64,000 nucleotides of DNA from Octopus sinensis (lineage: Eukaryota): assembly GCF_006345805.1 (NCBI RefSeq), contig NC_043008.1:23188001-23252000 (forward strand), written 5' to 3'. The first letter of the stretch is position 1; the number at the start of each line of letters is the position of its first letter. Positions 17,347 through 62,186 of the stretch are shown here, piece after piece. A model generated the notes under the pieces. That model had not been told where the DNA came from. It searched no databases and saw only the letters and a program-made list of their open reading frames with translations. The translations under genes were made by a program, and so were the position numbers.

Positions 17347-18840
17347 TCATTGTTCGACCGTGGTCGAGACAATGGAATTTACCATGCTATGCCAGACTTT
17401 ACGGTCCATCATGGCATTACGGAGGTCCTGTTGCTGGATGCCTGTATCCCTGGAGATTACATCAGGGTAGGAGAGGGTGCGCCCTCTGGTATTGCGAGTA
17501 GATGGCTTCCAGTGGAGAAGAATAGAAATTACCTCTTTTTCAGCTCTACAACAATGTCCAGCAAACTGGACTCTCTTACCTTTCACAAGAGATGACACAG
17601 GTGGTAGTTTCCCATATATTTGCATTTTGGTTGGATGGCGCTTCCACGAAAGATTTTGAGCTCTCATAAGGAGGCGAGTGTAGGTTCCATCCAACCGCCT
17701 ATCAAGCTTCTTTGATAACGTCCAGGTTTCTGAGCCATATAGTAGAATTGGTTCGACTGTGGCTTTGAAGATTTCAAGTTTGAAGTCTCTACTTAGATTT
17801 GATGACCAGATCTTATGCATGTCATTACAGGCTGACCAGGCCATACCCTTTCTAGTTAGAAAGTCTTTTCCAGATGATATGTATGACCCAAGATATTTGT
17901 AATCAGAAACCATATTTAAGGGCGCATTGTTGAGAGTATGGATGATGCAATCACTGTTGGACAGGCACTTGTTTATGTATTCAGTCTTGGCCTCATTGAG
18001 GTAAAGACCTACACAATTTGAGGCTTGTTCGAGAGATTGTAAAAGAGACTGGGCATTGGAGAGAGAATCACTGATAAGAGCGATGTCGTCAGCAAAGTCA
18101 GTGTCTGTCAAGTACTCAGCTGGGTGTCTGGAACTTCTTCTTGGTTTTATTTCAAAGCCCTTGCCAGAGATGGTATCAACTGACACACGTAGCACATAAT
18201 CAACAATGATGAAAAAAAATGGGGCAAGTGCGTCTCCCTGCAGTATTCCGGCTTTGATTGAGAAAGATGATGTTTCTCCATCAGGGGTTAAGATGGTTGA
18301 AGACGTATCTGTGTAGAGGGCCTTGATGGCGGAAATGATTTTGTCTGGTATCCCATAGAGGATTTCAAACATCTTGTACCTATCTACAGAATCGAACGTT
18401 TTAGAAAAGTCTACAAATACCATTGCAAGATCGCGATTAAATGCTTTTGATTCTTCAATAAGTCTGCGTAGGCATAGTATCTGGCTCAGCGTTGAGCGCC
18501 CATTTCTGAATCCATTTTGGTTCTTTCGGAGCAAAGGTTCAACAAAAAGGACAAGACGATTTAGGATCAGTTTGTTGTACAGTTTTGCAGCAATTGACAT
18601 TAGAGATATACCCATGTAGTTGGTGACGAGGGATAAATTGGCTTTTTTGGGTATTTGGATGATTTGAGATTGGTGCCAAATCTTTGGAGCGACAAAGGTG
18701 GAAAGTGTGTGGTTGCAGAGGTTGAGCAAAAGTGTGTGAAATCTATCATCCTTCCAAATTATAGCTGGGATGTTGTCGGGACCAAATGCTTTCGAGGCTT
18801 TTAGTTGCTTGGTGGCTGCTGTTAGTTCAAATATGGTAAA
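17347..18840 (-). pseudogene. Reverse-transcriptase half of the family B LINE ORF
   Basis: QNGFR, FVDFSK.FDSV, GILQGD.LAP, FADDIAL, YKYLGS and LLYGSETW. The frame stays open upstream of the annotated start as far as the homopolymer run (FTIFELTAATKQLKASKAFGPDNIP). Confidence 0.88.
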
Positions 18841-20387
18841 AAGGGGGGGGTGTTGATGTCCAGCGTGTCTGATATAGGCACACTTGGAAGAGTGGGGTTA
18901 TCAGGGATTTTGGCATTCTTCCCAAGGAGGTTTTTAAAATGGGTTGACCAATTTTCTAAACGCTTCTTAGCTGATCCCCCTTTAATTCTAATTGATGACC
19001 CAGAATTTTTGCCTGATAGGTCTTTGATGGATTTCCAGGCGAGGTGGTGTTTTTTACTAATGTGCTCTTTGGATAGTTTACTAATTTTGCCATTGATAAA
19101 GTCAACCTCGGCGTTCAAGTAAGCCTCATCAAGATTCTTCTTGACAGCTATGAGTTGGATCTTCAGTGACTGGGATGGAGAATGGTGGTAAGCTAGTGAT
19201 ATAGACTTTAGATGGTTTCTGGCTTTGATGACATTTGGGGAATTAGAAGGTTTGCTCTGGCCCCATCTCTTCTTTTTGGGAAGAGTAGCCAGTGCAACTT
19301 CCTCTGTTAATTTGATGAGGCTGCTGTATACTTCTTCAATGTTCTCAGCATCTATTTCAGAAGTAGACAAAGATTGAAATGTGTTATAGACCTCAATAGT
19401 AAATTGTTTGGACATATCAGGGTTAGATAAGACTTCCTCCCAGTCGATCGTTTTCATTGGGTGAGGCTTAGCTTTTTTGGATGAGCGAAGACTAAGCTTA
19501 ACGGTAGCTGATACAATTCTGTGGTCAGAGCCAACAGAACTAAAGGAAGAGTAAGATCTCGAGTTTTTAACACTATTGCGCCACTTCTTTCGAAAGATGA
19601 GGTAGTCAATTTGTGCCCTATCACCAAGTGGGGACCCAAATGTCCAAAGTTGACCTTTTGGTTTCATAAAAGAATTGTTGGAGGTGTAGAGATTAAATTC
19701 CTCCAAGAAGTCTTTGAGCATTTCTCCGTTCCGATTAGTTTTAGAGTTGAAAGTAAACTTGGTCTCATCGGGTCCTAGTCTAGCATTCAGATAACCAGCT
19801 ATAACTAGAAAATTATGGAGAGGTACTTGCTCAATGGTTGAACGAAGGGTTGTATAAAAACTCTCAATCTCATCTGCCACAGACGAATTATGTGGGCTAT
19901 ACACACATACCAATGTTGTTTTGGGGTTTCCATCTATCTCAAGCACCATAATTCTAGGTGAGATTGACTCTATACTCAAGAGAGTATCACTGGCTTTTGA
20001 TGAAAGTAGAAATCCGGTACCTCCAACTGTTGAATTAACAGTATTCTTTGATGCTGAGGAGGTTACAAGTTGATAAGAACCGACTTGATGGTATTTGAGG
20101 ATGTTGTCAAGGTGGTAAAATCGGTGTTCTTGGACAGCTATTATATCAATGCCATGTGATTCTGCATTTGCACCAAGTTCTTCTAGACAGCCAAGAGAGC
20201 CGAGGGTGTGGGCATTGAAGGTGCTGAGTATCGTATGATTTTTACAGCTGATGAGGTGTTTGTTTGGTGTTGTTTGGTTGGGGGCTGACTCTTCTCCATC
20301 AGGTGATACCCGTCTGTTAAGATTAAGGGCATCACCGTCAATGGATGCCCTTGGAGGTGCAACGTGATCAGAGACAGGACCCAGCAA
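18822..20387 (-). pseudogene. APE endonuclease half of the family B LINE ORF (521 aa)
   Basis: STFN, IIAVQEH, VYSP, G.LNA, QIDY and SDH motifs. The frame ends just after a C8/T5 homopolymer run at about 18838-18850. Confidence 0.85.
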
Positions 20388-22749
20388 AGCAGGGTCTGGA
20401 CCTACATCCGCAGGTATACCATTAGGTCTGGTTCCCTAGGGAAGAGGAACCCTGGTGCAGTTAATTGTAAATTCCATAGTCTTTGCTCCCACACCTGAAA
20501 TTTCTTCTCTAGTTCTGGTAGTGATTCAGCTATAAGAACAAGACCATCAGTATAAAGGAGCTCCAAGAGCAGCCAGTCTTAAATTCCTCTGTTATGGCCT
20601 GAAGGGCTATGATAAATAAAAGAGAGTTGAGAACTGATCTTTGGTAAACTCCTTCCTCTACACTAAATTTATTGCTATACTCATTGCCAACTTTCACCTT
20701 ACTGGCAGCATCCCTGTACATGGCTTGTACAGCTCTCACTAACTGCTCCTCTAACCCTAATTTCCACATTGACTACCAGATAAGGGATTGGGGTACCTTG
20801 TCAAATGCTTCTCCTTGGCTAAATGCTTCTCCTGCAGTTGCTTTACTAGGAAGATCTATCTAGGAAGTGCTATCACAAGTGCTATCTAGGAAGTGCTATC
20901 ACAAAACTAAACTGCATTTCATCTAGGCTAACTCTCTTCCAAATTAGTTGAATTATGACCCTTTCTGTAACTTTCATCACCTGGCACAGCAATCTGATAC
21001 TTGTCTCAGGTGTCACCTTTCAGACTAAAGTATTACCTTTAACTCTGTAGCAGCTGATTATAATGCTGCTACACAAATGATTGGGTTTGACTCCTTCATG
21101 GACAACCTAATTAACTATATTGGTGACTAAGCCATATCCCACTCTGCCAGATATTTTTAAGCATCTCAGCAGTGATTCTTGGTGGGTCAGGACATTCCCT
21201 GTGTTCATATCCTTAATTGCTTTATCTAACAAGCTACTGTCTATTCAGATTGCTAGTCCCTCTGTTGCATCCACATTAAGCAGACACTCCTTCCCTCCAT
21301 GCATTCTCTACATTCATCAGCCTTTCATAGTGACACTTCCAAGCATCTTTATTTGAAGAATCACTAACTTCAAGTGAACCATCATCCATGCAAACACACT
21401 TCTCACCTACAACATCACAATTTTCCCTGACATACTGTCTTGCAATCTGAAATACCTTAAGTCTCTAGGCCTCATGCCATAGAACATTGGAAAACTTCCT
21501 CCTTTCTGCTTCTCCCCTAGCTAAATATACCTATCTTCCAGCTTCACTTTTAGCTACCTGATATAATTCCCTGCTACCACTACTCTTCTGATCCTTCAAG
21601 GATTCTGTTTCTTTGCTTTAATGGTTTTGTCTGCTACACAGTTCCACCACCATGTCACCCTAGGTCTGGATGGGACTTTGCACCAGCCACAAATTCGGTC
21701 TGTGAGCCTCATAAATTGTCATGTAGGAATTTCCAGTTGTTCTCTATGTTACATGTCACCATCTCCACCTCCTCCTCATCAGACGCTTCAATTAGAACAT
21801 TTCTAAATCTCTGACTACTCAGAGGATTCTTAAGCTTCCACATCATTTTTTTCCCAAACTGCTTGCTTCTTGACATCCTTGAAGCCGGAGATCTGAAGTC
21901 ACTAACAACTAACCTATATTGAGGAGTGCACTCTTCACCTGGAAAGGGATTTGCATTTATAAGCAACCATCTTTCCTGCTTTCTGGTGAGAATGTAGTCA
22001 ATCTGGCTTGTGTGGCCACTCGATTGATAGGTGAACAGGTGTCTGGCTAGTTTCCTGAAATTACTATTGCAGATCATAAGGTCATTTGCATCACTGAAAA
22101 CCAGTAGCCTAGTTCCCTCCTCATTTAGGGAACTCTCTCTACAGTCTCCATGCACAAACCATGAAAGTCAACCAGATATTGTCTAGCATGCCCAACATGC
22201 CAACATTGTCAGTTATGAAGAGAAGTTAACTGTCATTTGTCAATGAAGTAGTCTACAAAAGGGTGTCATAAAAGCAATCTTTCTATTTGTCTGTCAGCTC
22301 TGGTTGAGGAGCATAGGCAGAAATAATAACTGATGTTCTACTTTGCAAAACTAGTCTAAGCATAAGTATTTGATCACACAATCTAACTTGATTGCTTTAT
22401 CAAACCATTCTACAACAAAAAGTATGCTCACGTCACTAACCCAATCACTAATGCCTACCCAGAAGATTTTATACACATGTTCTTTGCTTGTAAGAAATCT
22501 GGTAGAAGCTCACCTCCACCTTACTTCTTGTGCAACACACTTTCATTCCAGCATCTCAAATAATCTCACCAGATGTACTTTTCAATATACTCGCATTGAG
22601 TGTGCCAACTCTAAGAGTGAGGAAAGGGTGGCAAGAGAGAACAGGAGTATGGAGGTCAACATTCTGCAACTGAAAAATAGGTTTGCATGGACATTTGCCA
22701 ACAGATATATCATATAGGTTCATATAATTTTCAAATAAGTTTCATCCTA

Positions 22750-24720: not shown

Positions 24721-27260
24721 TTTTTTAAAAAGAGTGAAAAAAAAGGAAATGTTCTATATTAGGCAAAAACATTGTGTTTAGTATAAGCAGTGAAAGCTAA
24801 GACGAAAAAATAGCTTTTCTGTCCTCAACTCATGCTCAGTTTGATAACAACAGCCTGTGCATCAGTGTTTATGTGAGACCCACAAATGCTGCAGTTAGGA
24901 CTGGATTAACACTCATAATGATCCTGATGACTAAAAAGATTTTCCTGCTCCTATATAGGATATTTTTTCGTTTTCTTCCAACCACTTGAAGGCTTATCTT
25001 GCTCCAGTCCACTAAGCTGGCCAAAATGAGTTGTGGCTGTAATTGAAAGGGGTCAGCCTTGTTATATTCTGTGTGAGGTTGAATCTCCCTGAGAACTACG
25101 TTAATGATATGCATATCTGTGGAGTACTCGGCCACTTGCGAGTTAATTTTATCCTCTGTGGTAATGAAAAGTGAAAGTGACTTCCAATATTTGTTGCAGT
25201 TGTCTTTGATTTAACATCATGTCTATGTATTTGTGAATCAACTTTTCTTTCGATCATGTATCTTCTATCTCTCTCAATCTCATTCTCTCTCACTTCCTCT
25301 GTGTCCCTCCTCTCTCCTGATTTTAATTTAACAATATGTGTATGTATCTATGTATCAACTTTTCTTTCGACCTATGTATCTACTTTTCGACCTATGTATC
25401 TACTTTTCTTAAATATTTAAAACCACAAAAATGCTATAACCACTCACTGTCTCTTTGTCTTTCTCTCTTACTTCCTTTCTGAAACATTTAAAAACGAACG
25501 CTATCACCATTCTCTCTCTTCTCTCCTACTCTCTTGATTTCTCATTCTCTCTCTTTCTCTCTGTCCTTCTCTCTCTTGCTTTGCCATGCACTTCTTCCTT
25601 TGAAGTAAGCATGACACAGACCACAAAAGAACAAGTTGGTGTATTAATATTATTGATAAATTTGTTGTTATTATTATTATTCATACCAATCACATATTTA
25701 GTATCTACAGATTTATACCTATACTTATTAATAATATGTTCATCATCAATGCTTAATTTTCTGCCTATTGCATTTATATCATTATTTCTTCTTTTATTTA
25801 GCTAAGTTTGAAAAATTGTTTAATATATTTCTATCTAGATTTTTAGTTTTATTATACTCCCTATTAATTTCCAACTTATGCAAAATCCTATCATTTCCAG
25901 GAATTTTATTATTATTATGATTCTGGATATAGTAAATTTTATCTTTATATCCAGCTTCAAATAAAGTGTGGTTATAGTAATTTTCATTTTGTTTAAATAC
26001 ATCCTCATTAACTGAAAGTCTTGAAATGTGAGTAGATATGTTTTTAATGATAGAATTTATTATTCTCCTTGGATGATCTGAATTTTTATTTATATACCTT
26101 AGGCTTATGATAAAGTTGATCTGAATTTTTATTTACATGCATTAGGCTTATGATAAGGTTGGTATAGCTCATTACATAAATCAAGTGTAACATCAAGGAA
26201 GTTAACGCTATTCTAGTGGTAGAAAGAATAAGACACTTAAAGAATTTGAAAAGTTATTTTCTGGACTTTTCTAAATTAACCATATTAAATCTACCCATCT
26301 ACGATGGAGGTATAAAATGAGGGAGGGAAGTCATAACAGCAGTATGTATTGAGAAATGTGCAAATGGACTTGATAGATTACTGGGTGATGTCTTAAAGAA
26401 ATCACATTATTGTTGGTGATACAGCATTCTATTGCAGCTATATGACATGTGTTTGCGACTAAGTAACCTGTGATGACATTTCTCTCCTGAACTGAAATAG
26501 GTTCCCAACCTCTGTATCATGAATGGTTATGTGGACCACTCCTAGCAAAAGCCAGAGCTTCCTTTGACCACTACATAAAAAGTATTAAGAAAAAAATGTT
26601 ATTTAGTTATACTTTTATTTTAGTTGTTTACACTATTTTATGCTTGTTTATACTCTTATACATTCAAAGTTCATAAATTTTCTTATTTAAATTATGAATT
26701 ATATTCCTTTTGATAATATCAATATGATTACAAAACTTCTTTTTAGACAATATTTTCTGTTTGGTCGACACTAATTTTCAAATTACTGGAGTGATTGGCC
26801 ATGTGTAAACATTGGAGAGGTTAAAAATACACTTACATGATCTAATGTCTGGCCCTGTGCCTTGTTTGCTGTGAATGTGTGAGTGGAATCTTTAGGGTTG
26901 CAAAAAATCAAACTAAGACTTACCTCTCACTGTTCTATGCGAATAATGTCAGGCTTATTTTAATTGACAAAACTGAGATGTAAACAGCAGCCGCTTCGAT
27001 TAGCTGTTTTGAATCCTGCTTGAGACTGACTCGCTTCAATAACCACTAAATAATCACACACTAAATACTGACACACACTTTTTCCATTTTATTTTTGCTA
27101 TTAACTGTCCTTGTGACATTCTTCATATCTACGATGAGGCCACGAACTATATGATGAAAATCCAGAGTTACTTGAGGTTCATGAATTTTTAATAAAAATG
27201 TGAATCAAAAATCGATATCCATGAAATAGTCATACTTTCTGATTTTTTAATGCTAAAAAC

Positions 27261-27572
27261 CTACCAGATGACCATCTTTGTAATCCCGAAAAACATTGTT
27301 ACCATTGGTCCAGCTGTCTGGCCATGAAGAGAGAACAGACAAAGAGATAGAGAGATGGACAGACAGACTGACATAATGCCCATTCTAGTAAGATATATAG
27401 TGAATAGAGCTTCATCTCTATATAATCCACCTCCTAATTCAAGAAATTCATTATGTATACAACTAAGAATATAAATACCAACTAAATCGCTTACCTGAAC
27501 TAAATCACTAGACCACATGGTAATGTTGAAATTATCAGGCCTATCAATTGTAGTCCAATACTTCGAATTCAA
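27261..27572 (-). mobile_element. Penelope-like RT fragment
   Basis: NFNITM.S.D..QVSDLVGIYIL and GGLYRDEALF, matching the PLE RT core at 52000-52401. Confidence 0.7.
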
Positions 27573-39186: not shown

Positions 39187-39269
39187 TACCAAAGGTTTTC
39201 TTATTTGTTGTATTGTCATTTAGCATTTCAGTAACTTCTGCTGCATATATGACAGATGTAATCATACAT

Positions 39270-39587
39270 CATTGGTCAACTGGACAGGATCCTAGGTTGA
39301 AACAGTTAGGCTCTTGGTATTGACCTTGTATAATGATATTCTTCATGTTGGGGCAGTGGCTATATAATAATTTCACAGAACATCTATTAAATATTTTCCT
39401 GTATCTGTGAGTTGCTGGAAAGTCTTTGTCTAGGAGGGAGAGGAATCTTTTACCTATTTTAGTTTTTATATAAAGGGAAAAGGAGGGGCAAACCAAATGA
39501 TTTTCCGTGGCCTATTTGTAGATCTATTATTATTCTGATTGATATTAGTGGGGTTATCTATTACTTTATTTTTGATACCACTAGGTA

Positions 39588-39654
<67 letters not shown>

Positions 39655-40250
39655 TAAATTATCTTTGAAGTTATTCTTGGCTAAGGCATTGTTATAGTAG
39701 GGCATTGCTTTCCCAAAATTTTCTTTAGATGAAGAGAGGTTAGACACTCTGTTATCAATATTAGCTATTAGGTTTTTAAATATTACAGGAGGGTAACAAA
39801 ACTGTTTGTGTATACAGGTGAGTTTCTCATTAGGCTAATGGAAAGGCTTATACAAGGACTTCAGGTCTAGGGGAACATCTAAAAAGTCAGCTATAGACAG
39901 ATTAGTAGCTACTGTAATTTTTAAGGCCTAATTGACTGAAGGTAGAAATAAGTTGTTTTCTGAATCTATCAAGAATGTGACCAACACACCTATGGGAAAT
40001 ACCCAAACCATCATGTCATGAGATGGGTACTTAGATCTCAATGTGTTTAATATAAACAAACCCAAAAGGTCAGAGATCTTAGCACTATCATACGATAGTT
40101 AATGGATGAAATAAATGTAGGCTATGTTTAATTGAAAGCACTCAGATCCTTTCCAGATCTATGATCCCTAACTCTTTACTGAACTCTAGATCAGAAATTT
40201 ACATTGGTTCCAAACATATAAATATACTTTGAAGAATTGGAAAATTCCAC
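39270..40250 (-). mobile_element. Penelope-like element fragment (RT and linker)
   Basis: YYNNAL, poly-Asn linker, IIWFAPPF and IGKRFLSLLDKDFP..HRYRKIFNR..VKL.YS..PNMKNII. DFLDV remnant at about 39880. Confidence 0.8.
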
Positions 40251-40470
40251 CTATATCTGATTAATTTGTTGATATCTTTTCAGCTTTATAATTTAAGGTC
40301 TAAGATGGATAACTCTTTTACCTTTTTTTTACTTTTTACTAAAATGTAAAAAGTTTTTACTTTTTTGTTTTCTGTTTTTTATCCTTATCCATTTTCTATA
40401 TGCTGCCTTCTCAGCTTTTTTGTGTTTCTTCCCTGATTCAATTTTTTTAGTTCATTATGATATGTGGTTT

Positions 40471-40525
40471 GTACTTGATGAATATGTTTGAAGTATTTCT
40501 TAATATGTGAAACTATTAGTAGCAC
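40471..40525 (+). ncRNA. Degenerate type I hammerhead ribozyme (same repeat family as 58257)
   Basis: gtac-TTGATGA-atatgt...atatgt-GAAA-ctattag-TA-gcac. The core has C3>T and the stems have mismatches. Confidence 0.6.
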
Positions 40526-40591
40526 TTAAAGACATGTATTGCTCTTCAAATAAATAATAAATAATATATATAATATATAATAATATATATA

Positions 40592-44275: not shown

Positions 44276-47210
44276 AAGAGAATATTTATGAATACTTTTT
44301 AGTATATATCAAACTTTTACCACAATAGAAGGAGAAAAAGAAAATATAGAAATAGTTTAATATTTATACACTTAAATATTAACTCATCAGATGATATCTT
44401 TGAATATTGATTAAATGATATTTACTGGTATTAATAAAGAAGTATTGAGGTAACAGAACATACTAATTATATATAAAAAATTTTTAGTCTAAGCAGATTT
44501 TTTTATAAGTAGTGAATATATAGCTTTATATAAGCTGAGTATGAAATTTATATAGATAGAAGACTTAGAATAATTTCATAAATAAATGAATAAAGTCTAA
44601 TTTTAAGATAAAATAGAATAATCATAGAACATCATAGAAAAGGGATAAAATGATTTAAATACTCATACTATGATAAAGTATATTTAACTTGTTAACACCA
44701 ATAGAGAAGATTTTTAGAAAAAAGTTTAATAATTCAAAATATATTAAATTAAAAATTATATTTACTTGTCACGATAATATCTATAAAAGACTAATGTTCG
44801 GTCTCGGCTAAAGGAATAATTAAGTTATGGAACAATTCTATTTTACACTAATCTTTTTTTTAAATTAAGGGTTATATTATAGGTTTAAGAAGTTATTATT
44901 ACACCCTACATGATATTTATATTTTGTTATTGATACTTATTTAGAAAGGTTATTTATATAAAGGTCCTTATAAATACTAAGATCAGGAGGGTGGAGCAAT
45001 TTGAGAAAAGAGAAAAATCAAGTAATTTTTAAATATCATTTCAAACAATATTATCATACTGTATAAGGTTAAAAAATTTTTTTAGGGTATTCAAGAAGAT
45101 TATTAAGAATGAGGATTTTAACAAAAAGGATACCACTTTTTTTAATATTTTGAGTATATACCAAATTTTTTTTTACCATAATAGAGGGAGGAAAAAGAAA
45201 ATTGCAAAGAAATAGATTAATATTTATATATTTATTCTTATCTAAAATATTCACTTATTATTAGGTTTCTATGGAGATTGATCAAATGGATTTAACTGAT
45301 ATTTAATAAGGGCAACTGAGGTTAAAGAACATGTCAACTATATACTGATTTAATTAAAGTTGAACTAATTTTAAGTTGTGGACATACCAGTATTAACTTA
45401 TATAAGCTGAGTATGAATTAATAGGGGTACAAGGATTAGATTTATTTAAGGCTGCTATAAAAATAACAATAACAATAATAATAAAATGATCAGTTAGGGT
45501 AGAGCATCATGGAAAAGGAATAAAATAGACTAATCATTAAAAAACCATAATAAAGAAAAAAATATTCATACCTTATTAACTCTAATAGCAAGATTTTATA
45601 GAAAATGTATAATAATTTATGAGCTAAAATAATTGTTAACTTATTTAGCTTACTATAATCAGGGCTGAAACTCGGTATTAGTTGAAAAGATAATTTTTGT
45701 TAAAAGGACAAGTTAACCATATACTAATATTGAATCACGATATAGATTACAAAAGTTATTTGTGTTAATTCATAAATGATATTACAGTTTCTTAGGGGTA
45801 CTTAATTGGAAGGGCTATTTAAAACCAAAATAAATACAAAAATTAAGAGGATGGAACATTTTAAGAAAGGGATAAAAAACTTAATTACTAAAACTATTTT
45901 GAACAATATGTCATTTTTTGGTATAAGGTATAAATATAAGGCTGTCATGGAGATTTACCATTTAGGCAAGAGAACAAATAGTTAAATTTTAATTTAGGTA
46001 GTTTAGTTTTTAAATTTTGAAGATACCCATATTGTTTTTATAAGCTAAGAATGGCTTTATAGGGGTACAAAAATTTAGGTTTTTATAAAAATAATTATAA
46101 AGTTTTGAAATGATTAGGTAGAGTAGAAAAGAATGTGAAAATAGCTTAATCACTAAAATCATGATGAAGTACATATACAACTTAGTAACTTCAATAGAGA
46201 AGATTTATGGAACATATGCAATAATTCTAGAAATTAAAAAATTGTTTATTTACTCAATTAGCTTGTGTCTTTAATCACTGATACCTAGTATTGACTAAAA
46301 AATTAATGTTGCAGGGTATGCTATTTATGCATTGATTTTAAAACTAAGAGGTATATTATACGATTTAAAAACTCAAGATCAATAAAGAGCTACTTTCTAA
46401 AATATTTGAAGGTACGGGTAGTACTGTGTATGCATGATACCCTAAGGTCTAATTGATCAGGTTTACATTATCTTTATACTTAAAAATTTAATGTTTCGAT
46501 AGAGCAAAGCTCGCACCCATATCTGCTATTTCTATAAGGCTGTGCTTTTCTTATTATTTCCCATTTGAGGCTAAATTCAATTCCACTTTCCTTCAATTCC
46601 CACATCTTACTGATTAATGATGTACAATTCACTTTATGTTTAAGTTTAAAAGATGACACATGATTGTATATACGCTGTTTCAAATTAATCAAACAACCGA
46701 AGTAAATATAATTATTACTTGTAGTTATTATTGTACATTTATATACTACATTCTAGGCAAGACATTGGCCTAGTAACGGACAGCGGGATTTAACCCTACA
46801 GTTGCAACTAGGGGAATAATTATTATTAATATTAGTATCATTAAGAATTAAATTATTTTTATTTATATTATTAGTGTTTTCATTATTTATAATTAGATTA
46901 TTAAGTAAGTTATGTTCATGTCTATAATTTTCTAACTCCACTTCAACCGTATTATCATATAAATTCTCCTCATCACCAAGCATACAAATAGTTTCCATGC
47001 CCGTATATGTACTGAGACTATAATCCATAATACTATTATTAGAGGTGTTACCACTATTTATTCCATATACCCTATCATTTTCAATATTATTATTTTCCTT
47101 TTGGGGGTTTAAGTTATGGCTGATAGAATTATTACTATTATTATTTATATAATTATTATTATTGCCATTGTTATTATTATTTTTATTTTCATTGTTATTG
47201 TTAATGTTAC

Positions 47211-47255: not shown

Positions 47256-50200
47256 CATTCAGTAGTTTTATTTTTATAATGTGCTTTCACTTCACTACCA
47301 AGCGCAGCTCTGTGTGCCTTGGGTATGTGCTGTGATTTGTTGTGATGCTCTGATGATTACTGTATTGAAAGTGTTCTGTGTAGGATGTGTGCTGTGCCTA
47401 GTAGTGCAATTTTCTGTATGTTATATGTGTTTGTAAGTCCTGGTGTTTTTGTTATGTATTTGTCTGAATATTTTTTATCATGCCTAATGCACCTACTATG
47501 ATAGGAATTGTTTCTGTTTTTAGATTCCACATTCTAGTTACCTCTATTTCCAGGTCTTTGTATTTTGAAAGTTTCTCCATTTCTTTTAGAGACATGTTGT
47601 CATCTGCTGGTATTAATACATCAATTAGAAAGCATTTTTTTCTCTTCATGATCTCTGACAACTATATCTGTTCTGATGGCCTTAATTTATCTATCTGTGT
47701 GTATCGGCATATCCCAGAGTATGGTTGCTTTCTCGTTTTCTGTGACCTTTTCTGGTGTGTGCCTATACCATCTTTTTTCTGTTGTTATTTCATAATGTTG
47801 GCATAGCTTCCAGTGTATGTAGGTCCCAACTCTGTCGTGTCTGTGAATATATTCCTTCTTAGCCAGGACTGGGCAGCCAGAGATAATATGATTTATTGTT
47901 TCTTGTCCATCTCCACATATTCTGCAGTTACTTGTTATATTTCTTTTCAACCACTGCTGGGATTTTTCTTTGTCTATTTCTTTTGCATTTAGTTTAGTCC
48001 AGTACTTGCCATGAAGGGGCTTTTCTTGCCATCGTTTTATCATGGTCCGTTGCTGTTCTAGTTTTAGTTTTGATTTCATTTGCTTTATAGCTTTTGTTGT
48101 GTTTTTTCTTCTCCTTCTTCTTCTTCTTCTTCATCTTCTTCTTCTTCTTCTTCTTCTTCTTCTTCTTCTTCTTCTTCTTCTTCTTTGTTAGGTGGTATGA
48201 TTTCTTGTTTGTATTTGTCAGCTTCCTTAAATACTGAGAACAATTTTTTGTTTTGCTCGTGTTTTGCCGCTATTTGTATCAGTTTTCCTTGCTTCTGAAG
48301 TAGGTATTTTTGCAGTCCTATGGTGGTTATTTTGTAGTAGTTTTCCAGCTTTATGAGGCCTCTGCCACCTTCTATACGTTGTATATATAGTCTTTCGATG
48401 TCAGATTTTGTGTGATGCATCCTAGATCCTGTCATTATTTTTCTTGTTTTCCTATCTATTTTGGTTAGTTCATTTAGCGTCCAGTTAAGGGTATTGTAGC
48501 TGTAACTTATAACTGGGATGGCTAAAGTGTTAATACCTATTATCTTGTTTTTAGCATTGAGCTCTGTTTTTAGTATTGATCTAACTCGTCTATAGTATTC
48601 TTTCTTTATTTTCTCTTTCATTTGTGTGTGTTGTGTCTTATCTAGTTCATAGATTCCTAAATATTTGTAAGTTTGGCTTTGGTCTAATTCTCTTATTTCA
48701 TTGGCTTTATCTAGTGTAATGTTGCTACTCTTAACTAGTTTTCCTCTTTTCAGGGTTACTTTGGCGCATTTTTCTAATCCAAATTTCATATCTATTTCTT
48801 TGGTGAATCCATGGACTGTCTTTAGTAGTGTTTCCAGCTGTTTGTCATTTGTAGCATATAGTTTTAGGTCATCCATATATAAAAGGTGGCTGATCGTTTT
48901 GCCGTAACATTTATATCCACATCCAGTTCTATTTAGCATATCAGATAGAGTTGACAGTGCCAAGCAGAAAAGGAGTGGAGAGAGCGTGTCTCCCTGGAAT
49001 ATTCCTCTGCTAATGGTGATGGCTTTGGTTTTCACGAGTCCCCCTTTTGTTTGGAGTTGTAGCACTGTTTGCCATTTATTCATATAGTGTCCTATGTATT
49101 TTATGATTGTTGGTGCTACTTTGTTAATGGCTAGTGTTTCGAGGATCCATGTGTGGGGAATGCTATCAAACGCCTTTCTATAGTCAATCCAGGCCATACT
49201 GAGGCCTTTCTTCTTTCTGTGGCTGTCTTCATTTATGGCTTTATTGATCATTAGTTGATCTTTACAGCCATATGAGCCTTTGCGGCATCCTTTCTGCTCT
49301 TCTGGAAACAGGTTGTTTTCGTCCAAGTGCTTGTTTAATCTTTGTGATATTACCGCAGTGAATGCTTTGTACATTGTAGGGAGACAGGTTATAGGTCTGT
49401 AGTTTTCTGGTTTTGCTGTCTCATTGGATTTGGGAATTAAGATGGTTTTCCCCTTTGTGAGCCATTCAGGCATTGTCTCTGGCTCTGCCAGTATGTTGTT
49501 AAAGTTTTCAGCCAGCTTTTTGTGCATTCCTGTCCGATATTTCAACCAGAAGTTGGGGATCTTGTCATGCCCAGGTGCCTTCCAGTTGCTTAGTCTTTGC
49601 AGTGCCTGGGTGACCTCTTCAGTTGTTATGGGGGTCCAAAGTTGCTCAGATGCTGAATTTGTTGTTTTAATACTCCTTATTTTGGTTGTTCTTTCACCGA
49701 CCATATTTCTTTCCAGAATTCTTCCACTTCTTCTGCTGTTGGTGCTGCAGTGATGTCTATTTTATTTTTGCCATTTTCTTGGTAGAACTTTTTGGGGTTG
49801 GAGTTGAACTGTTTGTTTTGTTCAAAGAAACGTTGGCGTTTCTCATACCAGTAGAACCTTTGTGCTTTGGCAAGGATATCTTGCTTTAGCTTTTCTTTTT
49901 ATCTCAGGTAATTCTTTTTCTGTGATGTTGTATTTGCACAGTATTTTTATTTTATTTTTGTTGCTTAGTAGCGTTGATTGTCTACTGATTTCATTAAGAA
50001 TTGCCAGATCTTTTCTCATTTTTTGTATTTTGTTTTGGATGTTATTTATCCACAAGGTTTGTTTGGGTGGTGGTACTCCTTTTTGGATGGGTTTGAGGGA
50101 GTATCCAGCTTCTTTTGTGGCTGCAGTGGCTGCTGCATATACTAAGTCATTTAGCTCAGTGATATCGCTATTTGTTTCAGTGGCTATTAGTTCTGTGATG

Positions 50201-51289
50201 GCTTGGTTTATGCTATTTATAAGTGTTGTTGTTTTTTTGTCTATTTTGATTTTTGGGAGGTATGTTCGGTGGTCCATTTTGAGATCTGTATTTTTCAGTT
50301 CTTTGATTATTCTACTTTTTATAGTATCATAATCATTAGGCTCCCCTTCATTGTTTCCAGGTTTTAGATTTGTGTCGCTTTCTTTCTCATTCGTATGTTT
50401 GTCTGTCGTGTTTTGGCTTGCTGCTTGTTGTGCATTATTATGCATCCTTACGGTCTGGGTTTGCTGTTTTTTGTTTACATCGTTTTTGTGGGAAATGTTA
50501 CGTTTGTCTTCGTGTTTTACTATCTCAGTGTTTATATTATTTGGCATTGTTGTGTGGCTTCTATCTACATTTTCCTGATGTATTTTTCTTTTAAATGTTC
50601 TATTTCTATTTCTGATATTTTTTTTGCGTTGAGAATATATCTTCGTATGTTAGCTAGTTTATTAGGGTTCATTGCTGTATCCAAGTCTTTGTTTATGTCA
50701 TTTTTCTTCCATATTTTATATGTATATGTTGTTATGTATTCGTTCTTTGGGTAGAGCACTGCTGTAAAGTAAGCATGTAGGATTGAAATGTATTCCTCTC
50801 GCGTCCATTTATGCCTTTTTGGTTTTATTTGCAAGGACGTGAGGAACAACGTCTTGCCCATTATTTTGACGGTCGTCATTTTCGTTGGGTACTGGCCCGT
50901 TCATTTCTGTTGTCACATTGTTTTGCACATGTAGTTTTTCGTACTTTTTGTGTAACAAATTTAAAGTTCGTACTTCCTGATTGCTATTCTTGGGTTGAAT
51001 AATACTGGTATTATTTAATTTATTCGTAGTTTTTATGTACATGGTGTTTGGGGCTGAAGATGATCTGTTGTTGATGGATCGTAATGTATCAATCATGTTT
51101 ACATGGTTGGAGATGATATCGAGTTAAAATACATCATTTCATTTGGGAAATAGCAATAAATTTCAATGATATAGTCCAATCCTTTGTTAGTTAGTTTTTT
51201 GCTCCATGCAATGTCTTTGTTTCCGATGTTTTGTGGATAGATTTCGGAGCACTGTTTTATCACTCTCACATGTTAAATGTTCCCCGGTG
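47255..51289 (-). mobile_element. R4/Dong-clade non-LTR retrotransposon (RT plus restriction-like endonuclease), frameshifted
   Basis: 539-aa ORF with WKAPGHD, CKDQL, WIDYRKAFDSIPH, GIFQGDTLSPLLF and YMDDLK. CCHC CRICG...HIISGC, RHD, and RLE motif LIDV.IP...K..KY..L. N-terminal KWTREE. Flanked by (TAA)n on both sides. Confidence 0.9.
48110..48185 (-). repeat. (GAA)n microsatellite giving in-frame poly-Glu in the Dong ORF
   Basis: (ttc)n run on the + strand. Confidence 0.95.
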
Positions 51290-53482
51290 TTATTATTATT
51301 ATTATTATTACCATTATTTTTAACAATTCTGGCTAATCTTATATTCTTCCTATTTAATCTAGCTATGATGGTACTTATATTGGGGAGAGTAGAGTATAAG
51401 ATTCTAACCATCTTACGTGAAAAGATTCCATTATATCTATGGGAATTAGGGAAGTTTTTTTCTAAAATAGCCATAAATCTACTATATATGTTTGTGGATA
51501 TTGTTTAGTTGAAACCATATGAGATTTTTACCTTTAAATTTTTTATGTAAGTAAGGGTAGGATAAATTTGTGCTTTCTCTGCTCCCTAGAATTGTGCCAT
51601 GAATAATAGTTTTGTATTTATTTCTATTGGGTCCTTTATTTGGAGGAGTAACCATTTCTTTTTCATTTTCATCTATTTTATTTAACCCAAGTTTTTTACT
51701 TTTATTAGTATCCAATCTACTATCGGAGTCTACTCTGTTATTATTATTTAAAATGTAGGATAGGTTATCAGTTTGTATTTTTTCATAACTCAGTAAGTTA
51801 GTAGACTTTCTATTACTTAAACTATTCTTATTTTTTCCTCTATTAAAAAGTGCTAAACTCTCCGGATTGAGAAAAGTAATTTCTTGGTCATATCCCGCTT
51901 TAGACAAAGCAACATTATAGTGGTATGAATGGGAATTAAAAATCTCAATGTTTGATGATAATTTAGTAATTCTCCTTGAAATACTTTTAACTACTGATTT
52001 TAATACATTGGGGGGGGGGTTGTTGATAATTTATTCACATATCTTATAACCTCACCTTCTTTCCTATAGGGGTAGTATAATTTAGAATTAATGTTTAAAG
52101 TAGTATCTAAAAAATGAACTACTTTAGTGTTATATTCATATGTAATACTTAAGTTAAAATTTTTGAAAAATTTTCTAATTCCCTTTCTCATTCTTTCTAT
52201 GATTGATTTATTGGTGGTAGGGATGATGAATAAAGCATCATCCCTATATAGACCACCTTGTAATTCAGGGATTTCTTTATTTAGACATCTTAACAGATAC
52301 GTGCCCAATAGATTAGTGACTTCAGCTGAGTTGCTGGAACCGTTAGGTATATCAAAATTTTCTGGAGTCAGTCCTAGTCCTAGTCCAGAGTTTGCCCTCA
52401 AATTTTATAATAGTTCTAGCTAACAGAATTATATCAATTTTATCCCTAGTTATGAGAGAGAGAGAGAGAGAGAAAGAGAGATCTTTAGCTAAAATAAGAG
52501 TCTTGTTAAGGAGGATGGGGGATATACTTGAATAATAACTATTTATATCAAATTGGATAAAAGAATAATTACTATCAATAGATTTGAACCAATGAATTAC
52601 TTCATCTGTATCAATCCATAATTTTAGAGTTAGGTTGGGAATTATAAGGGGTAGAATATTGTCAAGAATAGACTTGCTAAGCCGGCCAATATCCAACTTA
52701 GGTGGGCATATAAATCTTACAGTAGGATTATCCTGGAAGTTCTTTTTGTGGTCTTTCAGGTTAATCCTAGGTTCGCTTGGTGTTCGCTTGGTGTTCGTGG
52801 TTCTGTTCGGTCTGCTAAGTCATATTCCATTATAACTTCCTTGATTTTCAAATTGATATCCGATAGATTCTTTTTTGATGTTATTTTATATTTAGCGTTG
52901 AGTTCCTTCATTACAAGTTTACTATAGGTGGTATAGTCAAACCTATATAAGTTTCTGGTTTTATCTGTTGGGACCAGAATGCCTGGTTTTGTTATGCAAT
53001 GACTTAATAAATTCCTTTAGTTTCCTCAGATGTAAGTTTTTTCTTAGTGGGTATTCCTTGAATTTTACATTAGCAATACGATTGAATAAATCTTTTTCAA
53101 AATTTTCTAGTAGTGGATTAGGTGACAGATTTTTTCTGCTTTTGAATATCTTTTTATAATAATTCTTCTCATGTGTTTCTAGAGATTCATTTTTCTTTGT
53201 AGCATCTTGATGGTAAGCAATCTACCTTACCTGTCCAATAAACTCGTTTGTTCTATGGATTAGTAGCCACGTATAGGTGTCTTTACTATGTAAGGGGATG
53301 TCCTTCTGAGAAAATTCTATATTTACCTTTTCCATCTTGCTGAAAATTAAATATCAGAAATATACTCTAGGTATGGTAGATGAGTTCAGTAGAAATTTAG
53401 ATTCAGATGAATATGGTACGTAATTTGAGGCACCAGAATTTAGTATGGTATTATCCATACAATTTCAAAATATGGTGATTAA

Positions 53483-58046: not shown

Positions 58047-58090
<44 letters not shown>

Positions 58091-58256
58091 ATTAAATTAG
58101 AGATAAAACCACTATTAGGCAAATCAAACAGTGAAAAACATAAACCAAAACATAAAAGTAAAAATAATATAATATACAAAATATATAAAAATATAAAATT
58201 TATATATATATAGATATATATACGATTTAATTAAAGGACACAATACATGTCTTTAA

Positions 58257-58311
58257 GTGCTACTAATAGTTTCATATGTTGAGAAATATTTCAGACATAT
58301 TCATCAGGCAC
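58257..58311 (-). ncRNA. Minimal type I hammerhead ribozyme with intact core
   Basis: Minus strand: GUGC-CUGAUGA-AUAUGU[cugaaauauuucuca]ACAUAU-GAAA-CU[auu]AG-UA|GCAC. Stems I, II and III all pair, and the cleavage triplet is GUA. Confidence 0.85.
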
Positions 58312-58541
58312 AAACCACATATCATAATGAACTAAACAATTTGAATAAGGGAAGAAATGCTAAAAAATTAAGAAGGCAACATGTAGAAAACGTGGATGGA
58401 TAAAAAAAATAGAAAATGAAAAATGGAAAATGAAAACACAAAACTTAAAATGTAAAAATGTATTGTGTCCTTTAAATAAATAATATTTATCTCTCACCAG
58501 AGAGTAATTATTTTGTTGAATTTTCTATCACAGAACAGTAC

Positions 58542-58580
<39 letters not shown>

Positions 58581-58622
58581 GAAAGAATGGAGTCGAACGA
58601 CGATTTTAACAAAATTCTTTTA

Positions 58623-58705
58623 CTCTCGACACATGTTTCGAAGGCTGCATATTCCTAATTCCGAAGGAATAAAGGGTGCATTATGCCGCCATCTCATCAG
58701 GAAAG
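58623..58705 (-). ncRNA. Type I hammerhead ribozyme in the PLE terminal repeat (left arm)
   Basis: Minus strand: CUUUC-CUGAUGA-GAuGGCgGCAUA...UAUGCaGCCuUC-GAAA-C[AUGU]G-UC|GAGAG. Stem III is minimal, with palindromic ACAUGU. Confidence 0.82.
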
Positions 58706-61700
58706 ACAAGGAACTTATGTCAGCACCATGAAGAGCAAAAACTTTTAGATGACTGCCCACATGATGTCCACAGTAATAATGAGTGTTTCTTTAAAATATC
58801 CCGTTATAAGCAATGACATCAAAGTTGGTTGGATGGAGAATGTTCTGAAGAGTTTAAGAGTTCAAATTTGGTTGGGAGGAGAAAGCTCTAGGAAGGGGAT
58901 AGAGTGCAAGCTGTATTGTATGGGGATGCGTTCATGCTTGTATGTGTGTGTGTGCGTGACTGTGTGTGTAGGGTGACAAATATCAGAAACATTTAGTAGT
59001 GAGGTGACAGATTTGTGTCTGTGTGTTCGATTGTGGGTATGATAGATAGAGAGAGAGAGAGAGAAAGAGAGAGAGGTGGGGAGATGCAGAGAAAAAGAGG
59101 AAAACATATCCCAACAAATTTAGTAGTAATTCTTCATGTAACGTAGTAGAAAAAAAGAAATTGTCTATGGTGGTGTTGTAGAAGTGAAACTAAATTATTA
59201 AAATCAAAGAGGTTATCTATACTAATCATCATTCATATGAGAGGAAAGTATGTCTCTGCCAATGTTTGCACTTATAGGATTTTTCTATAATTGTGTTTAC
59301 CAAGGGGAATTTGGAGAAAAGGATAAAGAAGAGTTCGGAATTACAAAGGCCACAGAATTTCCTGTCCTTATCAAAAGGAAAAGATACAGATAATATGGAC
59401 CAGTCCAGTTTGAAAGTTATATTGCTGTCCTTAAGACGCCATACTTATTTACTTAGTCCTGTACTCTGTTGTTTTCTCTTATCTCAGAAAGTTGAATAAT
59501 GATTAGAAATTCTCTGGGGCAAACAAGAAGTTGTCGCGCCAATATAGAAGAAGACACCGGCCCTGGAAGAAATCCTACACTGGTAAATGGAGTTTTTAAT
59601 TTTGGAATTACTGGATAAGAATTTTAATCTGTTAGGGTTTTCCTCCGAGATTAAAACGGAGTTTCTATTGTTCTGATTGCTGTTAACATTACTGCTAGCG
59701 TTGATCACTACACTATTTCTATTATTGTTATTATTATTAGTTGTACTATCACCGGCAATATCCCTGACAATAGAAATGCTGTCGTTGCTACCATCAACAC
59801 TACCACTGTTATTAATTTGACTAATACTATTACTAATATTACCATTGTTAATACTAACGCTGCTACGAATGTTGTTATTATCAATACTACCTCTATCATT
59901 ACTATTGTATGTTTGGTTGGAATTGGTGAGAATAGTGTTGTAACTCCCGGGTGAAGAATCTTTGTTTAGCAGCTTATTATTATGGGAGGCAATAATTTGC
60001 GAAAGATTTTTAGTATTAGAGAATGCAATCCTTACCCTATGCAAATTGATAATCGAGTAATACCTAGAATCCCTGGGAAATTTCTTAGCTACGGCCTCAC
60101 GGAACTGTAAAGGAAGGTTTGATTTGATTTGCTTCCCGAAAGGTATAACAAACCAGATATAGTTTTTTGTGGATTTAGAATTGGTCATATTGCTACCATT
60201 GACAGTAAAGGGAAAATTTCTATGTTGGAAATTTGGGGTTGGTTGTCTATTTCCTCCTCTGGTCTGTAAATTACTTTTCTTATGTACAGAAATAGTGAGA
60301 ATAATGATTCCAGCTCTAACAATGTCGGCACCCCTGTACATAAGAAAAGTAATTTACGGACCAGGGGAGGAAATAGACAACCAACCCCAAATTTCCAACA
60401 TAGAAATTTTCCTTTTACTGTCAATGGTAGCAATATGACCAATTCTAAATCCACAAAAAACTATATCTGGTTTGTTATACCTTTCGGGAAGCAAATCAAA
60501 TCAAACCTTCCTTTACAGTTCCGTGAGGCCGTAGCTAAGAAATTTCCCAGGGATTCTAGGTATTACTCGATTATCAATTTGCATAGGGTAAGGATTGCAT
60601 TCTCTAATACTAAAAATCTTTCGCAATTATTGCCTCCCATAATAATAAGCTGCTAAACAAAGATTCTTCACCCGGGAGTTACAACACTATTCTCACCAAT
60701 TCCAACCAAACATACAATAGTAATGATAGAGGTAGTATTGATAATAACAACATTCGTAGCAGCGTTAGTATTAACAATGGTAATATTAGTAATAGTATTA
60801 GTCAAATTAATAACAGTGGTAGTGTTGATGGTAGCAACGACAGCATTTCTATTGTCAGGGATATTGCCGGTGATAGTACAACTAATAATAATAACAATAA
60901 TAGAAATAGTGTAGTGATCAACGCTAGCAGTAATGTTAACAGCAATCAGAACAACAGAAACTCCGTTTTAATCTCGGAGGAAAACCCTAACAGATTAAAA
61001 TTCTTATCCAGTAATTCCAAAATTAAAAACTCCATTTACCAGTGTAGGATTTCTTCCAGTACCGGTGTCTTCTTCTATATTGGCGCGACAACTTCTCGTT
61101 TGTCCCAGAGAATTTCCAATCATTATTCAACTTTCTGAGATAAGAGAAAACAACAGAGTACAGGACAGCAATATAACTTTCAAACTGGACTGGTCTGGTC
61201 CATATTATCTGTATCTTTTCCTTTTGATAAGGACAGGAAATTCTGTGGCCTTTGTAATTCCGAACTCTTCTTTATCCTTTCTCCAAATTCCCCTTGGTAA
61301 ACACAATTATAGAAAAATCCTATAAGTGCAAACATTGGCAGAGACATACTTTCCTCTCATATGAATGATGATTAGTATAGATAACCTCTTTGATTTTAAT
61401 AATTTAGTTTCACTTCTACAACACCACCATAGACAATTTCTTTTTTTCTACTACGTTACATGAAGAATTACTACTAAATTTGTTGGGATATGTTTTCCTC
61501 TTTTTCTCTGCATCTCCCCACCTCTCTCTCTTTCTCTCTCTCTCTCTATCTGTCATACCCACAATCGAACACAGACACAAATCTGTCACCTCACTACTAA
61601 ATGTTTCTGATATTTGTCACCCTACACACACAGTCACGCACACACACACATACAGGCATGAACGCATCCCCATACAATACAGCTTGCACTCTATCTCCTT

Positions 61701-61887
61701 CCTAGAGCTTTCTCCTCCCAACCAAATTTGAACTCTTAAACTCTTCAGAACATTCTCCATCCAACCAACTTTGATGTCATTGCTTATAACAGGATATTTT
61801 AAAGAAACACTCATTATTACTGTGGACATCATGTGGGCAGTCATCTAAAAGTTTTTGCTCTTCATGGTGCTGACATAAGTTCCTTGT

Positions 61888-61970
61888 CTTTCCTGATGAG
61901 ATGGCAGCATAATGCACCCTTTATTCCTTCGGAATTAGGAATATGCAGCCTTCGAAACATGTGTCAAGAG
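61888..61970 (+). ncRNA. Type I hammerhead ribozyme in the PLE terminal repeat (right arm)
   Basis: ctttc-CTGATGA(61893-99)...C-GAAA-catgt-GTC(61963-65)|aagag. Core intact. The first stem I pair is lost (G>A) relative to the left copy. Confidence 0.75.
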
Positions 61971-62186
61971 TAAAGGAATTTTGTTAAAATCGTCGTTCGA
62001 CTCCATTCTTTCATTTATTCATAGTTTAAAAAAACACACAAATTTACACACGAGAACACAGGATCCCTGCCCTTGGCATATAGCTTCAACCGTGTTTTCT
62101 GATGTGAATTTGCTACCCAGGTATCGGTTAACCGAATTATCCATACTAGGATAATTCATTCACCTTCTTAAATATATATATATATA

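What the first reader, a model, noticed from the sequence alone, without database searches (positions are those of the whole stretch)
58090..58480. Short non-coding repeat carrying an intact minimal hammerhead (retrozyme-like or solo pLTR family)
Seen: a complete type I hammerhead at 58257-58311 (-), with all three stems and the CUGAUGA/GAAA/GUA core. It sits in a ~400-bp AT-rich repeat between (TA)n tracts, with no ORF. A second copy of the repeat lies at about 40330-40560 (+) with a mutated core. Its sequence is unrelated to the hammerhead only ~310 bp away at 58623. Inference: either a dispersed non-autonomous ribozyme retroelement mobilised by PLE proteins or a solo PLE terminal repeat. 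I do not know whether it has been described.
Basis: partly seen in the sequence, partly recalled or inferred. Interest (0 to 1): 0.78.

Follow-up and report, generated by a model that had tools for sequence, protein, structure and literature searches.

The report
Truncated Hydra-clade Penelope retroelement end
The hammerhead-ribozyme motif is real, but it is the ordinary ribozyme-bearing end of an old, broken Penelope-like retrotransposon of the known Hydra clade, likely inserted here as two short head-to-head pieces, and not a separate non-coding ribozyme element.

Summary
The type I hammerhead at 58257-58311 (-) is real (1 descriptor hit in the window, 0.02 expected). It is not a retrozyme. 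It is the 3' UTR/pseudo-LTR of a ~2.7 kb Penelope-like element (PLE). In other genomic copies the same sequence runs upstream into a GIY-YIG endonuclease and a reverse transcriptase (28 of 30 endonuclease-picked loci). In 4 of 20 RT-picked loci it also precedes the ORF start. The protein has every Hydra-clade motif (RWK, DKT, CxCX5C, no CCHH, CxxC/CxH). It is a sister of the published Hydra-1_Obim, with a different ribozyme. The window locus is a 5'-truncated head-to-head pair: 58458-58212 (-) with the short end, 58458-58545 (+) with the ~70-nt tail, both ending in TA repeats. One short plus one long end occurs in 11 of 14 inverted pairs, the known PLE tail signature. The 'second copy' also carries coding remnants (39193-40559). 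Copies are 79-87% identical to the query, with scattered 5' ends and no retrozyme-type arrays. One oddity remains: 15 of 55 arms stop just upstream of the ribozyme. Verdict: new family of a known clade, low interest.

The parts
58257..58311 (-). Minimal type I hammerhead with palindromic stem III; predicted cut between 58261 and 58260
   Evidence: Sequence, descriptor scan against shuffles, constrained fold
58212..58458 (-). Arm 1: 5'-truncated 3' UTR/pLTR of the PLE, starting about 205 nt upstream of the GAAA box (just below the ORF stop at about -225) and ending at the family's short 3' end (about +55) in a TA-rich tract
   Evidence: 79-87% identity to 39 other genomic copies; alignments
58458..58545 (+). 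Arm 2: inverted, very short copy (+25 to about +115, then TA) carrying the family's long 3' end with the ~70-nt tail; gives the 37-nt inverted repeat 58212-58248 / 58458-58494
   Evidence: 90% identity to the tail of natural copy L065
58543..58577 (.). (TA)n tract at the end of arm 2, likely target site; shared with the neighbouring, unrelated PLE insertion
   Evidence: Sequence; TA repeats at the 3' end in 20 of 28 copies against 8% background
58198..58222 (.). Degenerate TA tract at the end of arm 1, likely the other half of the target
   Evidence: Sequence
40110..40559 (+). Second window copy: end of the endonuclease coding region (broken), 3' UTR, hammerhead with C3 changed (40471-40525), short 3' end
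   Evidence: 77% to L065
39193..40095 (-). Inverted arm of the second copy: broken RT C-terminus, thumb, linker and start of the GIY-YIG endonuclease
   Evidence: 77% DNA identity over 928 columns; tblastn E 2.6e-40 with a sister-family ORF

Best explanation
The repeat is the hammerhead-bearing end (pseudo-LTR) of a Hydra-clade Penelope-like retrotransposon family whose longer copies encode a reverse transcriptase and a GIY-YIG endonuclease, and this locus likely arose when that protein cut a TA repeat and copied the element's RNA from two start sites, leaving two truncated arms head to head. Shown: the element layout (tail, 5' UTR, one ORF of about 715 codons, 3' UTR, hammerhead, tail), the two 3' end classes, their pairing in inverted insertions, the TA junctions, and the age and decay of the copies. 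Inferred from the Anolis PAc work: the endonuclease cuts both strands of an AT-rich target, each end primes reverse transcription at one of two internal RNA sites about 70 nt apart, and both cDNAs stop early and are joined. The ribozyme would have cut the long tandem precursor, probably only as a dimer or with protein help. In this copy it is most likely a neutrally decaying passenger.
For: 28 of 30 loci picked by endonuclease DNA continue into the repeat on the same strand (one is the query's own locus). RT, endonuclease, UTR and hammerhead are contiguous in L061, L065, L069 and L083. In 4 of 20 RT-picked loci (L066, L067, L075, L081) the tail or the 3' part of the hammerhead plus tail runs directly into the 5' UTR and ORF start, so the repeat occurs at both ends. 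Hydra motifs are all present (against PMC8557442 section 11). Among 28 pattern-picked loci, 5' ends range from -4 to -1223, 3' ends fall in two classes (12 short, 16 long), 14 have an upstream inverted arm, 11 of these 14 pair one short with one long end, and 20 of 28 end in TA repeats. First-look candidates fall from 1233 (3' end) to 1102 (endonuclease) to 180 (RT) (not copy numbers). Two subfamilies differ at a stem I pair (U-A in 34 of 38; C-G in 12 of 30 with 15 more C-A or T-G, as CpG decay would give) and at the variable core position 7.
Against: No copy of this family with an intact ORF was seen: the family's best protein hits have open frames of 167-317 aa or internal stops, so autonomy is read from broken copies. 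Most copies (19 of 28) do not reach the ORF, and 5' ends cluster at -40 to -57 (15 of 55 arms), which random truncation does not explain. The tail is about 70 nt, against 30-40 bp in the literature. Three of 14 inverted pairs do not show the short-plus-long pattern. Cleavage was not tested. The stem I change between subfamilies is a single event. Clade assignment rests on motifs and a by-eye comparison, not a tree.
Confidence: 0.92

Rival explanations
1. A dispersed non-autonomous ribozyme retroelement (retrozyme-like), amplified on its own through small linear or circular RNAs and mobilised in trans by PLE proteins.
For: More than a thousand first-look candidates; most copies lack coding sequence (19 of 28); 5' ends cluster just upstream of the hammerhead; younger sister Hydra families with open frames of 700-766 aa exist in the genome and could supply protein. 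Retrozymes are proposed to derive from pLTRs (bioRxiv 10.64898/2026.07.22.740005).
Against: No direct tandem in 28 loci; the two direct pairs checked are local duplications with host DNA. 5' ends are staggered, not fixed. No young copies: best non-self hits are 79-87%, highest pairwise identity over the ribozyme region 95%. GC-poor minimal hammerhead of PLE type, not the canonical retrozyme type (PMC7229834). RNA reads are few, on both strands, 91-95% run on into unlike sequence, no pile-up of ends and no circle-type joint (one study, about 6% of each run, possibly another species).
Confidence: 0.04
2. The family is a PLE as described, but the many very short copies are a defined product: transcription starts in the upstream pLTR about 50 nt before the GAAA box, and reverse transcription primed at the first tail runs off the RNA 5' end, giving short hammerhead-only copies.
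For: 15 of 55 arms end at -40 to -57; in L087/L088, L092 and L100 both arms stop at -51 to -54; only 1 of 27 arms ends near the predicted cut site. In vitro, PAc primes near the 5' copy of the tail and product length follows the RNA 5' end (PMC11167929).
Against: The ends spread over about 15 nt; a self-complementary AT-rich motif at that place could cause fold-back or joining instead; BLAST end calls are imprecise; no start-site data. It does not apply to the finding's own arms (-205 and +25).
Confidence: 0.3
3. A short DNA transposon or Helentron-type element with terminal inverted repeats that happens to hold a hammerhead-like motif.
For: A 37-nt inverted repeat flanks 58212-58494.
Against: The left repeat is simply the start of an inverted copy of the element's own 3' end; no other copy among L002-L030 has it at that place; upstream sequence in other copies is PLE coding sequence.
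Confidence: 0.01

Closest known systems
Hydra clade of C-terminal-endonuclease PLEs (Craig et al. 2021, PMC8557442), nearest published family Hydra-1_Obim of Octopus bimaculoides
   Same: Length under 3 kb, one ORF, RWK and DKT motifs, CxCX5C linker, GIY-YIG without CCHH, CxxC and CxH around E and N, hammerhead in the 3' end, (TA)n targets. By my own eye count 74 of 146 residues (about 51%) are identical from DKT to YPSI between L043 and the supplement's Hydra-1_Obim.
   Different: Different hammerhead sequence; two short motifs of this family's ribozyme give 0 hits in that supplement (line breaks could hide a hit). Here a pLTR arrangement is seen (4 loci), which the supplement notes as not found for Hydra-1_Obim. 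This family is old and broken.
PLE minimal hammerheads (Cervera and de la Pena 2014, PMC4209133)
   Same: Type I, short stem I, long stem II with an extra base before it, small palindromic stem III; mostly single motifs from truncated PLEs, some as close pairs on opposite strands.
   Different: Nothing of kind; a new sequence family. That paper found no cleavage for a single minimal motif and low cleavage for dimers; this one is untested.
PAc (Poseidon-clade PLE of Anolis; Frangieh et al. 2024, PMC11167929)
   Same: Two 3' end classes separated by a tail that is the start of the next tandem unit; AT-rich targets.
   Different: Other clade; tail about 70 nt here against 30-40 bp; here the tail lies in the 5' UTR, while PAc primes 111-118 nt inside the ORF.
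Non-LTR retrozymes (Cervera and de la Pena 2020, PMC7229834; Li et al. bioRxiv 2026)
   Same: Short AT-rich non-coding stretch with a type I hammerhead; PLE kinship.
   Different: Retrozymes are head-to-tail arrays of 170-400 nt units with abundant circles; here copies are dispersed, truncated, head-to-head and continuous with a PLE ORF.

Membership tests
Hydra-clade PLE | Single ORF, RT followed by C-terminal GIY-YIG endonuclease, element under 3 kb | tested here: met
   Contiguous broken RT-EN-UTR in L061, L065, L069, L083; about 2.7 kb estimated from L066 and L061 coordinates; collinear over the whole length with a 703-aa sister frame
Hydra-clade PLE | RWK motif at the N-terminus and DKT in place of DKG | tested here: met
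   RWK in L067, L074, L075, L081; DKT in L043, L065, L066 and others
Hydra-clade PLE | CxCX5C linker; no CCHH in the endonuclease; CxxC and CxH flanking the conserved E and N | tested here: met
   Linker cysteines spaced x1 and x5, no cysteines between the IY and YIG boxes, CxxC before E, CxH after N in L038, L041, L042, L047, L051
Hydra-clade PLE | Hammerhead in the terminal repeat; insertion into (TA)n | tested here: met
   20 of 28 ends in TA repeats against 8% background
Hydra-clade PLE | RT phylogeny groups with Hydra | not tested
   Reference proteins were seen only in a paper supplement and were not available to the tree tools; by-eye identity of about 51% to Hydra-1_Obim stands in
PLE pseudo-LTR | Same sequence at the 3' end and, in partial tandem, before the ORF start; inverted 5'-truncated copy; tail at one end only | tested here: met
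   4 of 20 RT-picked loci; 14 of 28 with an inverted arm, 11 of 14 with one tail
Non-LTR retrozyme | Head-to-tail tandem units, each with a hammerhead | tested here: not met
   0 of 28 loci; 2 direct pairs among 30 further loci are duplications of mostly host DNA
Non-LTR retrozyme | Fixed non-coding unit of 170-400 nt independent of an ORF | tested here: not met
   Staggered 5' ends from +23 to -1223; 9 of 28 reach the ORF
Non-LTR retrozyme | Abundant unit-length linear and circular RNA | tested here: inconclusive
   100-136 reads per run in three RNA runs, both strands, no end pile-up, no circle-type joint; standard libraries can miss small circles and the species may differ
Hammerhead ribozyme | Self-cleavage after the NUH triplet | not testable with these tools
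   Motif complete; monomer predicted to prefer another fold

The most novel reading that the evidence does not exclude
The pile-up of 5' ends 10-20 nt upstream of the hammerhead marks the RNA start of a Hydra-clade PLE, so that the element routinely scatters short, ribozyme-only run-off copies: a genomic record of two-site priming on both target strands and a ready source of proto-retrozymes.
Probability: 0.3. Interest if true: 0.5.

Novelty: new member of a known kind. Interest (0 to 1): 0.2.

Why it matters
As found, it adds one old family to a clade already described from an octopus, and shows that dispersed short hammerhead repeats in such genomes are truncated PLE ends. It has modest value as a test bed: the short-plus-long end pairing in 11 of 14 inverted insertions fits the two-start-site priming shown in vitro for a different PLE clade, and the genome holds younger sister families with near-full open frames in which the end pairing and the 5' end cluster could be measured cleanly.

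Tried and rejected
Rfam: no hammerhead model hit. Pfam: no hit at E<=0.001 for the window frames near the finding, none meaningful for three family fragments; the Atlas gave unnamed clusters first and GIY-YIG-bearing clusters at 0.94 (a lead only). The RT at 48085-49761 is unrelated to this family (E 0.23). Terminal-inverted-repeat DNA transposon or Helentron: rejected. Neptune, Nematis or Naiad clade: rejected on DKT, CxCX5C, missing CCHH and the C-terminal endonuclease. Identity with Hydra-1_Obim: rejected on hammerhead and about 51% RT identity. Selection on inserted copies: column conservation is nearly the same in core (0.94), stems (0.93), loop (0.94) and flanks (0.92); the core is intact in 33 of 69 rows and core plus all stems in 7 of 69 (rows were picked by likeness to the window motif, 2 rows cut inside the motif were dropped). 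5' ends at the cut site: 1 of 27. A second 5' cluster at -215 to -236 is staggered. Run search: no RNA holder listed on record. Earlier findings of this scan: none. Literature searches for Penelope + hammerhead + octopus and Hydra + Penelope-like + octopus + retrotransposon returned only Craig et al. as relevant; the giant squid genome paper was seen as a listing only. Repbase and Dfam could not be searched, so the family may already be catalogued there.

Full report
Observation. The minus strand at 58257-58311 holds a complete type I hammerhead motif: 4-bp stem I, CUGAUGA, an extra A, a 6-bp stem II, GAAA, a short palindromic stem III and GUA. A descriptor scan found only this hit on both strands of the window, against a mean of 0.02 in 100 dinucleotide shuffles (the descriptor was written after seeing the motif and misses the long-stem neighbour). 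Rfam does not detect it. The hammerhead fold is 5.6 kcal/mol above the best monomer fold. This fits minimal PLE hammerheads, which were found inactive as monomers and weakly active as dimers (PMC4209133, parts 1-2 of 4 read). The second copy at 40471-40525 has C3 changed. There is no likeness to the hammerhead at 58623.

Family. A search of the own genome with 58225-58485 gave 1233 first-look candidates; 40 were scored, and the 39 non-self full matches are 79-87% identical. Upstream of the repeat, several loci translate into the C-terminal part of a GIY-YIG endonuclease. Of 30 loci picked with that coding DNA, 28 continue into the repeat on the same strand (one is the query's own locus). Picking by RT DNA gave copies in which RT, thumb, linker, endonuclease, 3' UTR and hammerhead are contiguous (L061, L065, L069, L083). 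In 4 of those 20 loci the tail, or the 3' part of the hammerhead plus the tail, runs directly into a 5' UTR and the ORF start (L066, L067, L075, L081). So the repeat is a true pseudo-LTR. From the L066 and L061 coordinates I estimate about 2.7 kb and about 715 codons.

Clade. Craig et al. (PMC8557442; passages, section 11 and supplement searches read) define Hydra by length under 3 kb, RWK, DKT, a CxCX5C linker, no CCHH, CxxC and CxH around the conserved E and N, hammerheads and (TA)n targets. All are present here. Their supplement lists Hydra-1_Obim from Octopus bimaculoides. Its RT matches L043 at 74 of 146 residues by my eye count, and its hammerhead is different, so this is a sister family. 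The host is therefore probably an octopus (inference; a 2.7-Gb genome, and SINEs in the window that I recognise from memory only). No tree was built. A protein search found no intact ORF of this family, but many younger sister copies at 42-53% identity with open frames up to 766 aa; one of these aligns along the whole family ORF and shares no DNA similarity with the repeat.

Anatomy of the locus. The repeat is not 58090-58480. Arm 1 runs 58458 to 58212 on the minus strand and ends at about +55 from the GAAA box in a TA-rich tract. Arm 2 runs 58458 to 58545 on the plus strand, is an inverted copy of +25 onward with the 70-nt tail, and ends in (TA)n. 58090-58180 is another repeat. The window's second copy starts at 40110 inside the endonuclease coding end and has an inverted coding arm at 39193-40095.

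End structure across copies. An exact 26-nt pattern matched 53 places (control 0). Of the 30 loci returned, 2 were dropped as the other arm or a duplicate of a locus already counted. In the 28 left, 5' ends range from -4 to -1223 and 9 reach the ORF stop at -225; 3' ends are short (12, +44 to +73) or long (16, +97 to +128); 14 have an upstream inverted arm, and 11 of these pair a short with a long end; none has a direct tandem; 20 end in TA repeats against 8% background. A second pattern downstream of the cut site matched 93 places (control 0). Its 30 loci show the same two ends. Two direct pairs are 97-98% identical duplications of 750-900 nt made mostly of flanking DNA; a third pair in the match list (C7, 511 nt apart) was not fetched.

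Mechanism. Craig et al. describe 5' truncation, an inverted copy at the 5' end and a tail at one end only as general PLE features. Frangieh et al. (PMC11167929, main text read) show in vitro that a PLE protein cuts both strands of AT-rich DNA, starts reverse transcription at two internal RNA sites whose spacing is the tail, and that its hammerhead cleaves only with protein and is not needed for insertion. I infer that each cut end primed one arm here. That step is inferred, not shown for this family.

Ribozyme history. Over 69 rows (2 dropped as cut inside the motif), mean pairwise identity is 81%, the core is intact in 33 and core plus stems in 7, and core columns are hardly more conserved than flanks (0.94 against 0.92). 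The copies look neutrally decaying, and the intact motif here is probably luck. Two subfamilies differ at a stem I pair (U-A against C-G with CpG-type decay) and at the variable position 7, which suggests, from one event only, that the structure was kept in the active parents.

RNA. No holder is on record as RNA. Three raw RNA runs added by species label gave 100-136 reads each at 80% likeness, on both strands, 91-95% running on into unlike sequence, with no pile-up of ends and no circle-type joint. This fits read-through of scattered copies, but is weak: one study, about 6% of each run, possibly another species.

Against my reading. No intact parent ORF was seen. Most copies are short. 5' ends cluster at -40 to -57 in 10 of 28 and 5 of 27 arms (3 duplicate loci dropped from the second sample), and in three inverted pairs both arms stop at -51 to -54. 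This could mark the RNA start or a fold-back site; it is the one feature worth a follow-up. Samples are small and come from exact-match or best-score picks.

Comparison. Retrozymes are defined by head-to-tail units and circles (PMC7229834, passages read; bioRxiv 10.64898/2026.07.22.740005, part 1 of 5 read, its supplements closed). The tandem and fixed-unit tests fail here. The family's ribozyme motifs were not found in the Craig supplement, and two targeted literature searches gave no other relevant paper; Repbase and Dfam could not be checked. Verdict: new member of a known kind, interest 0.2.

Noticed in passing
window 58570-62170: A near-perfect 3.4-kb palindrome (arms 93-100% complementary, 44-nt centre at 60290-60333) made of two truncated 3' ends of another, younger PLE family with a long-stem hammerhead near each outer end. 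Its endonuclease remnant matches a Hydra-type protein. The right arm carries about 150 nt more than the left before its TA tract, the same one-tail pattern.
   Followed up: partly
window 52000-53341 (-), 51364-51501 (-), 46495-46809 (-), 25929-26206 (-), 27405-27569 (-): Further broken pieces with tblastn matches to a Hydra-type ORF, so this one window holds several such PLE families.
   Followed up: no
loci L119-L125 and the 42-49% hits: At least two younger sister families with open frames of 600-766 aa; better material for studying Hydra-clade transposition. My simple core pattern found no convincing hammerhead in L119-L125 within the fetched flanks.
   Followed up: partly
window 58090-58180: A separate AT-rich repeat, 93% identical over 84 nt to L055:3107-3190; not identified.
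   Followed up: no
L006, L007, L020, L021 (G000:C2:188628327-188634133): A 1.5-kb unit holding one head-to-head insertion of this family is repeated in tandem at 99.5% identity.
   Followed up: partly
L139 and L144: Two 3-kb loci on different large contigs (C2 and C3) are 99% identical over their whole length: a segmental duplication or a larger young element carrying the copy.
   Followed up: no
window 17347-20435 (-), 48085-50649 (-), 7156-7950 (+): Non-LTR retrotransposon frames with RT and endonuclease or PHD matches; unrelated to this family (for 48085-49761).
   Followed up: no
L133, L135, L143, L097: Some copies have an inverted segment that continues the element's upstream part rather than repeating the 3' end, like twin-priming inversions.
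   Followed up: no
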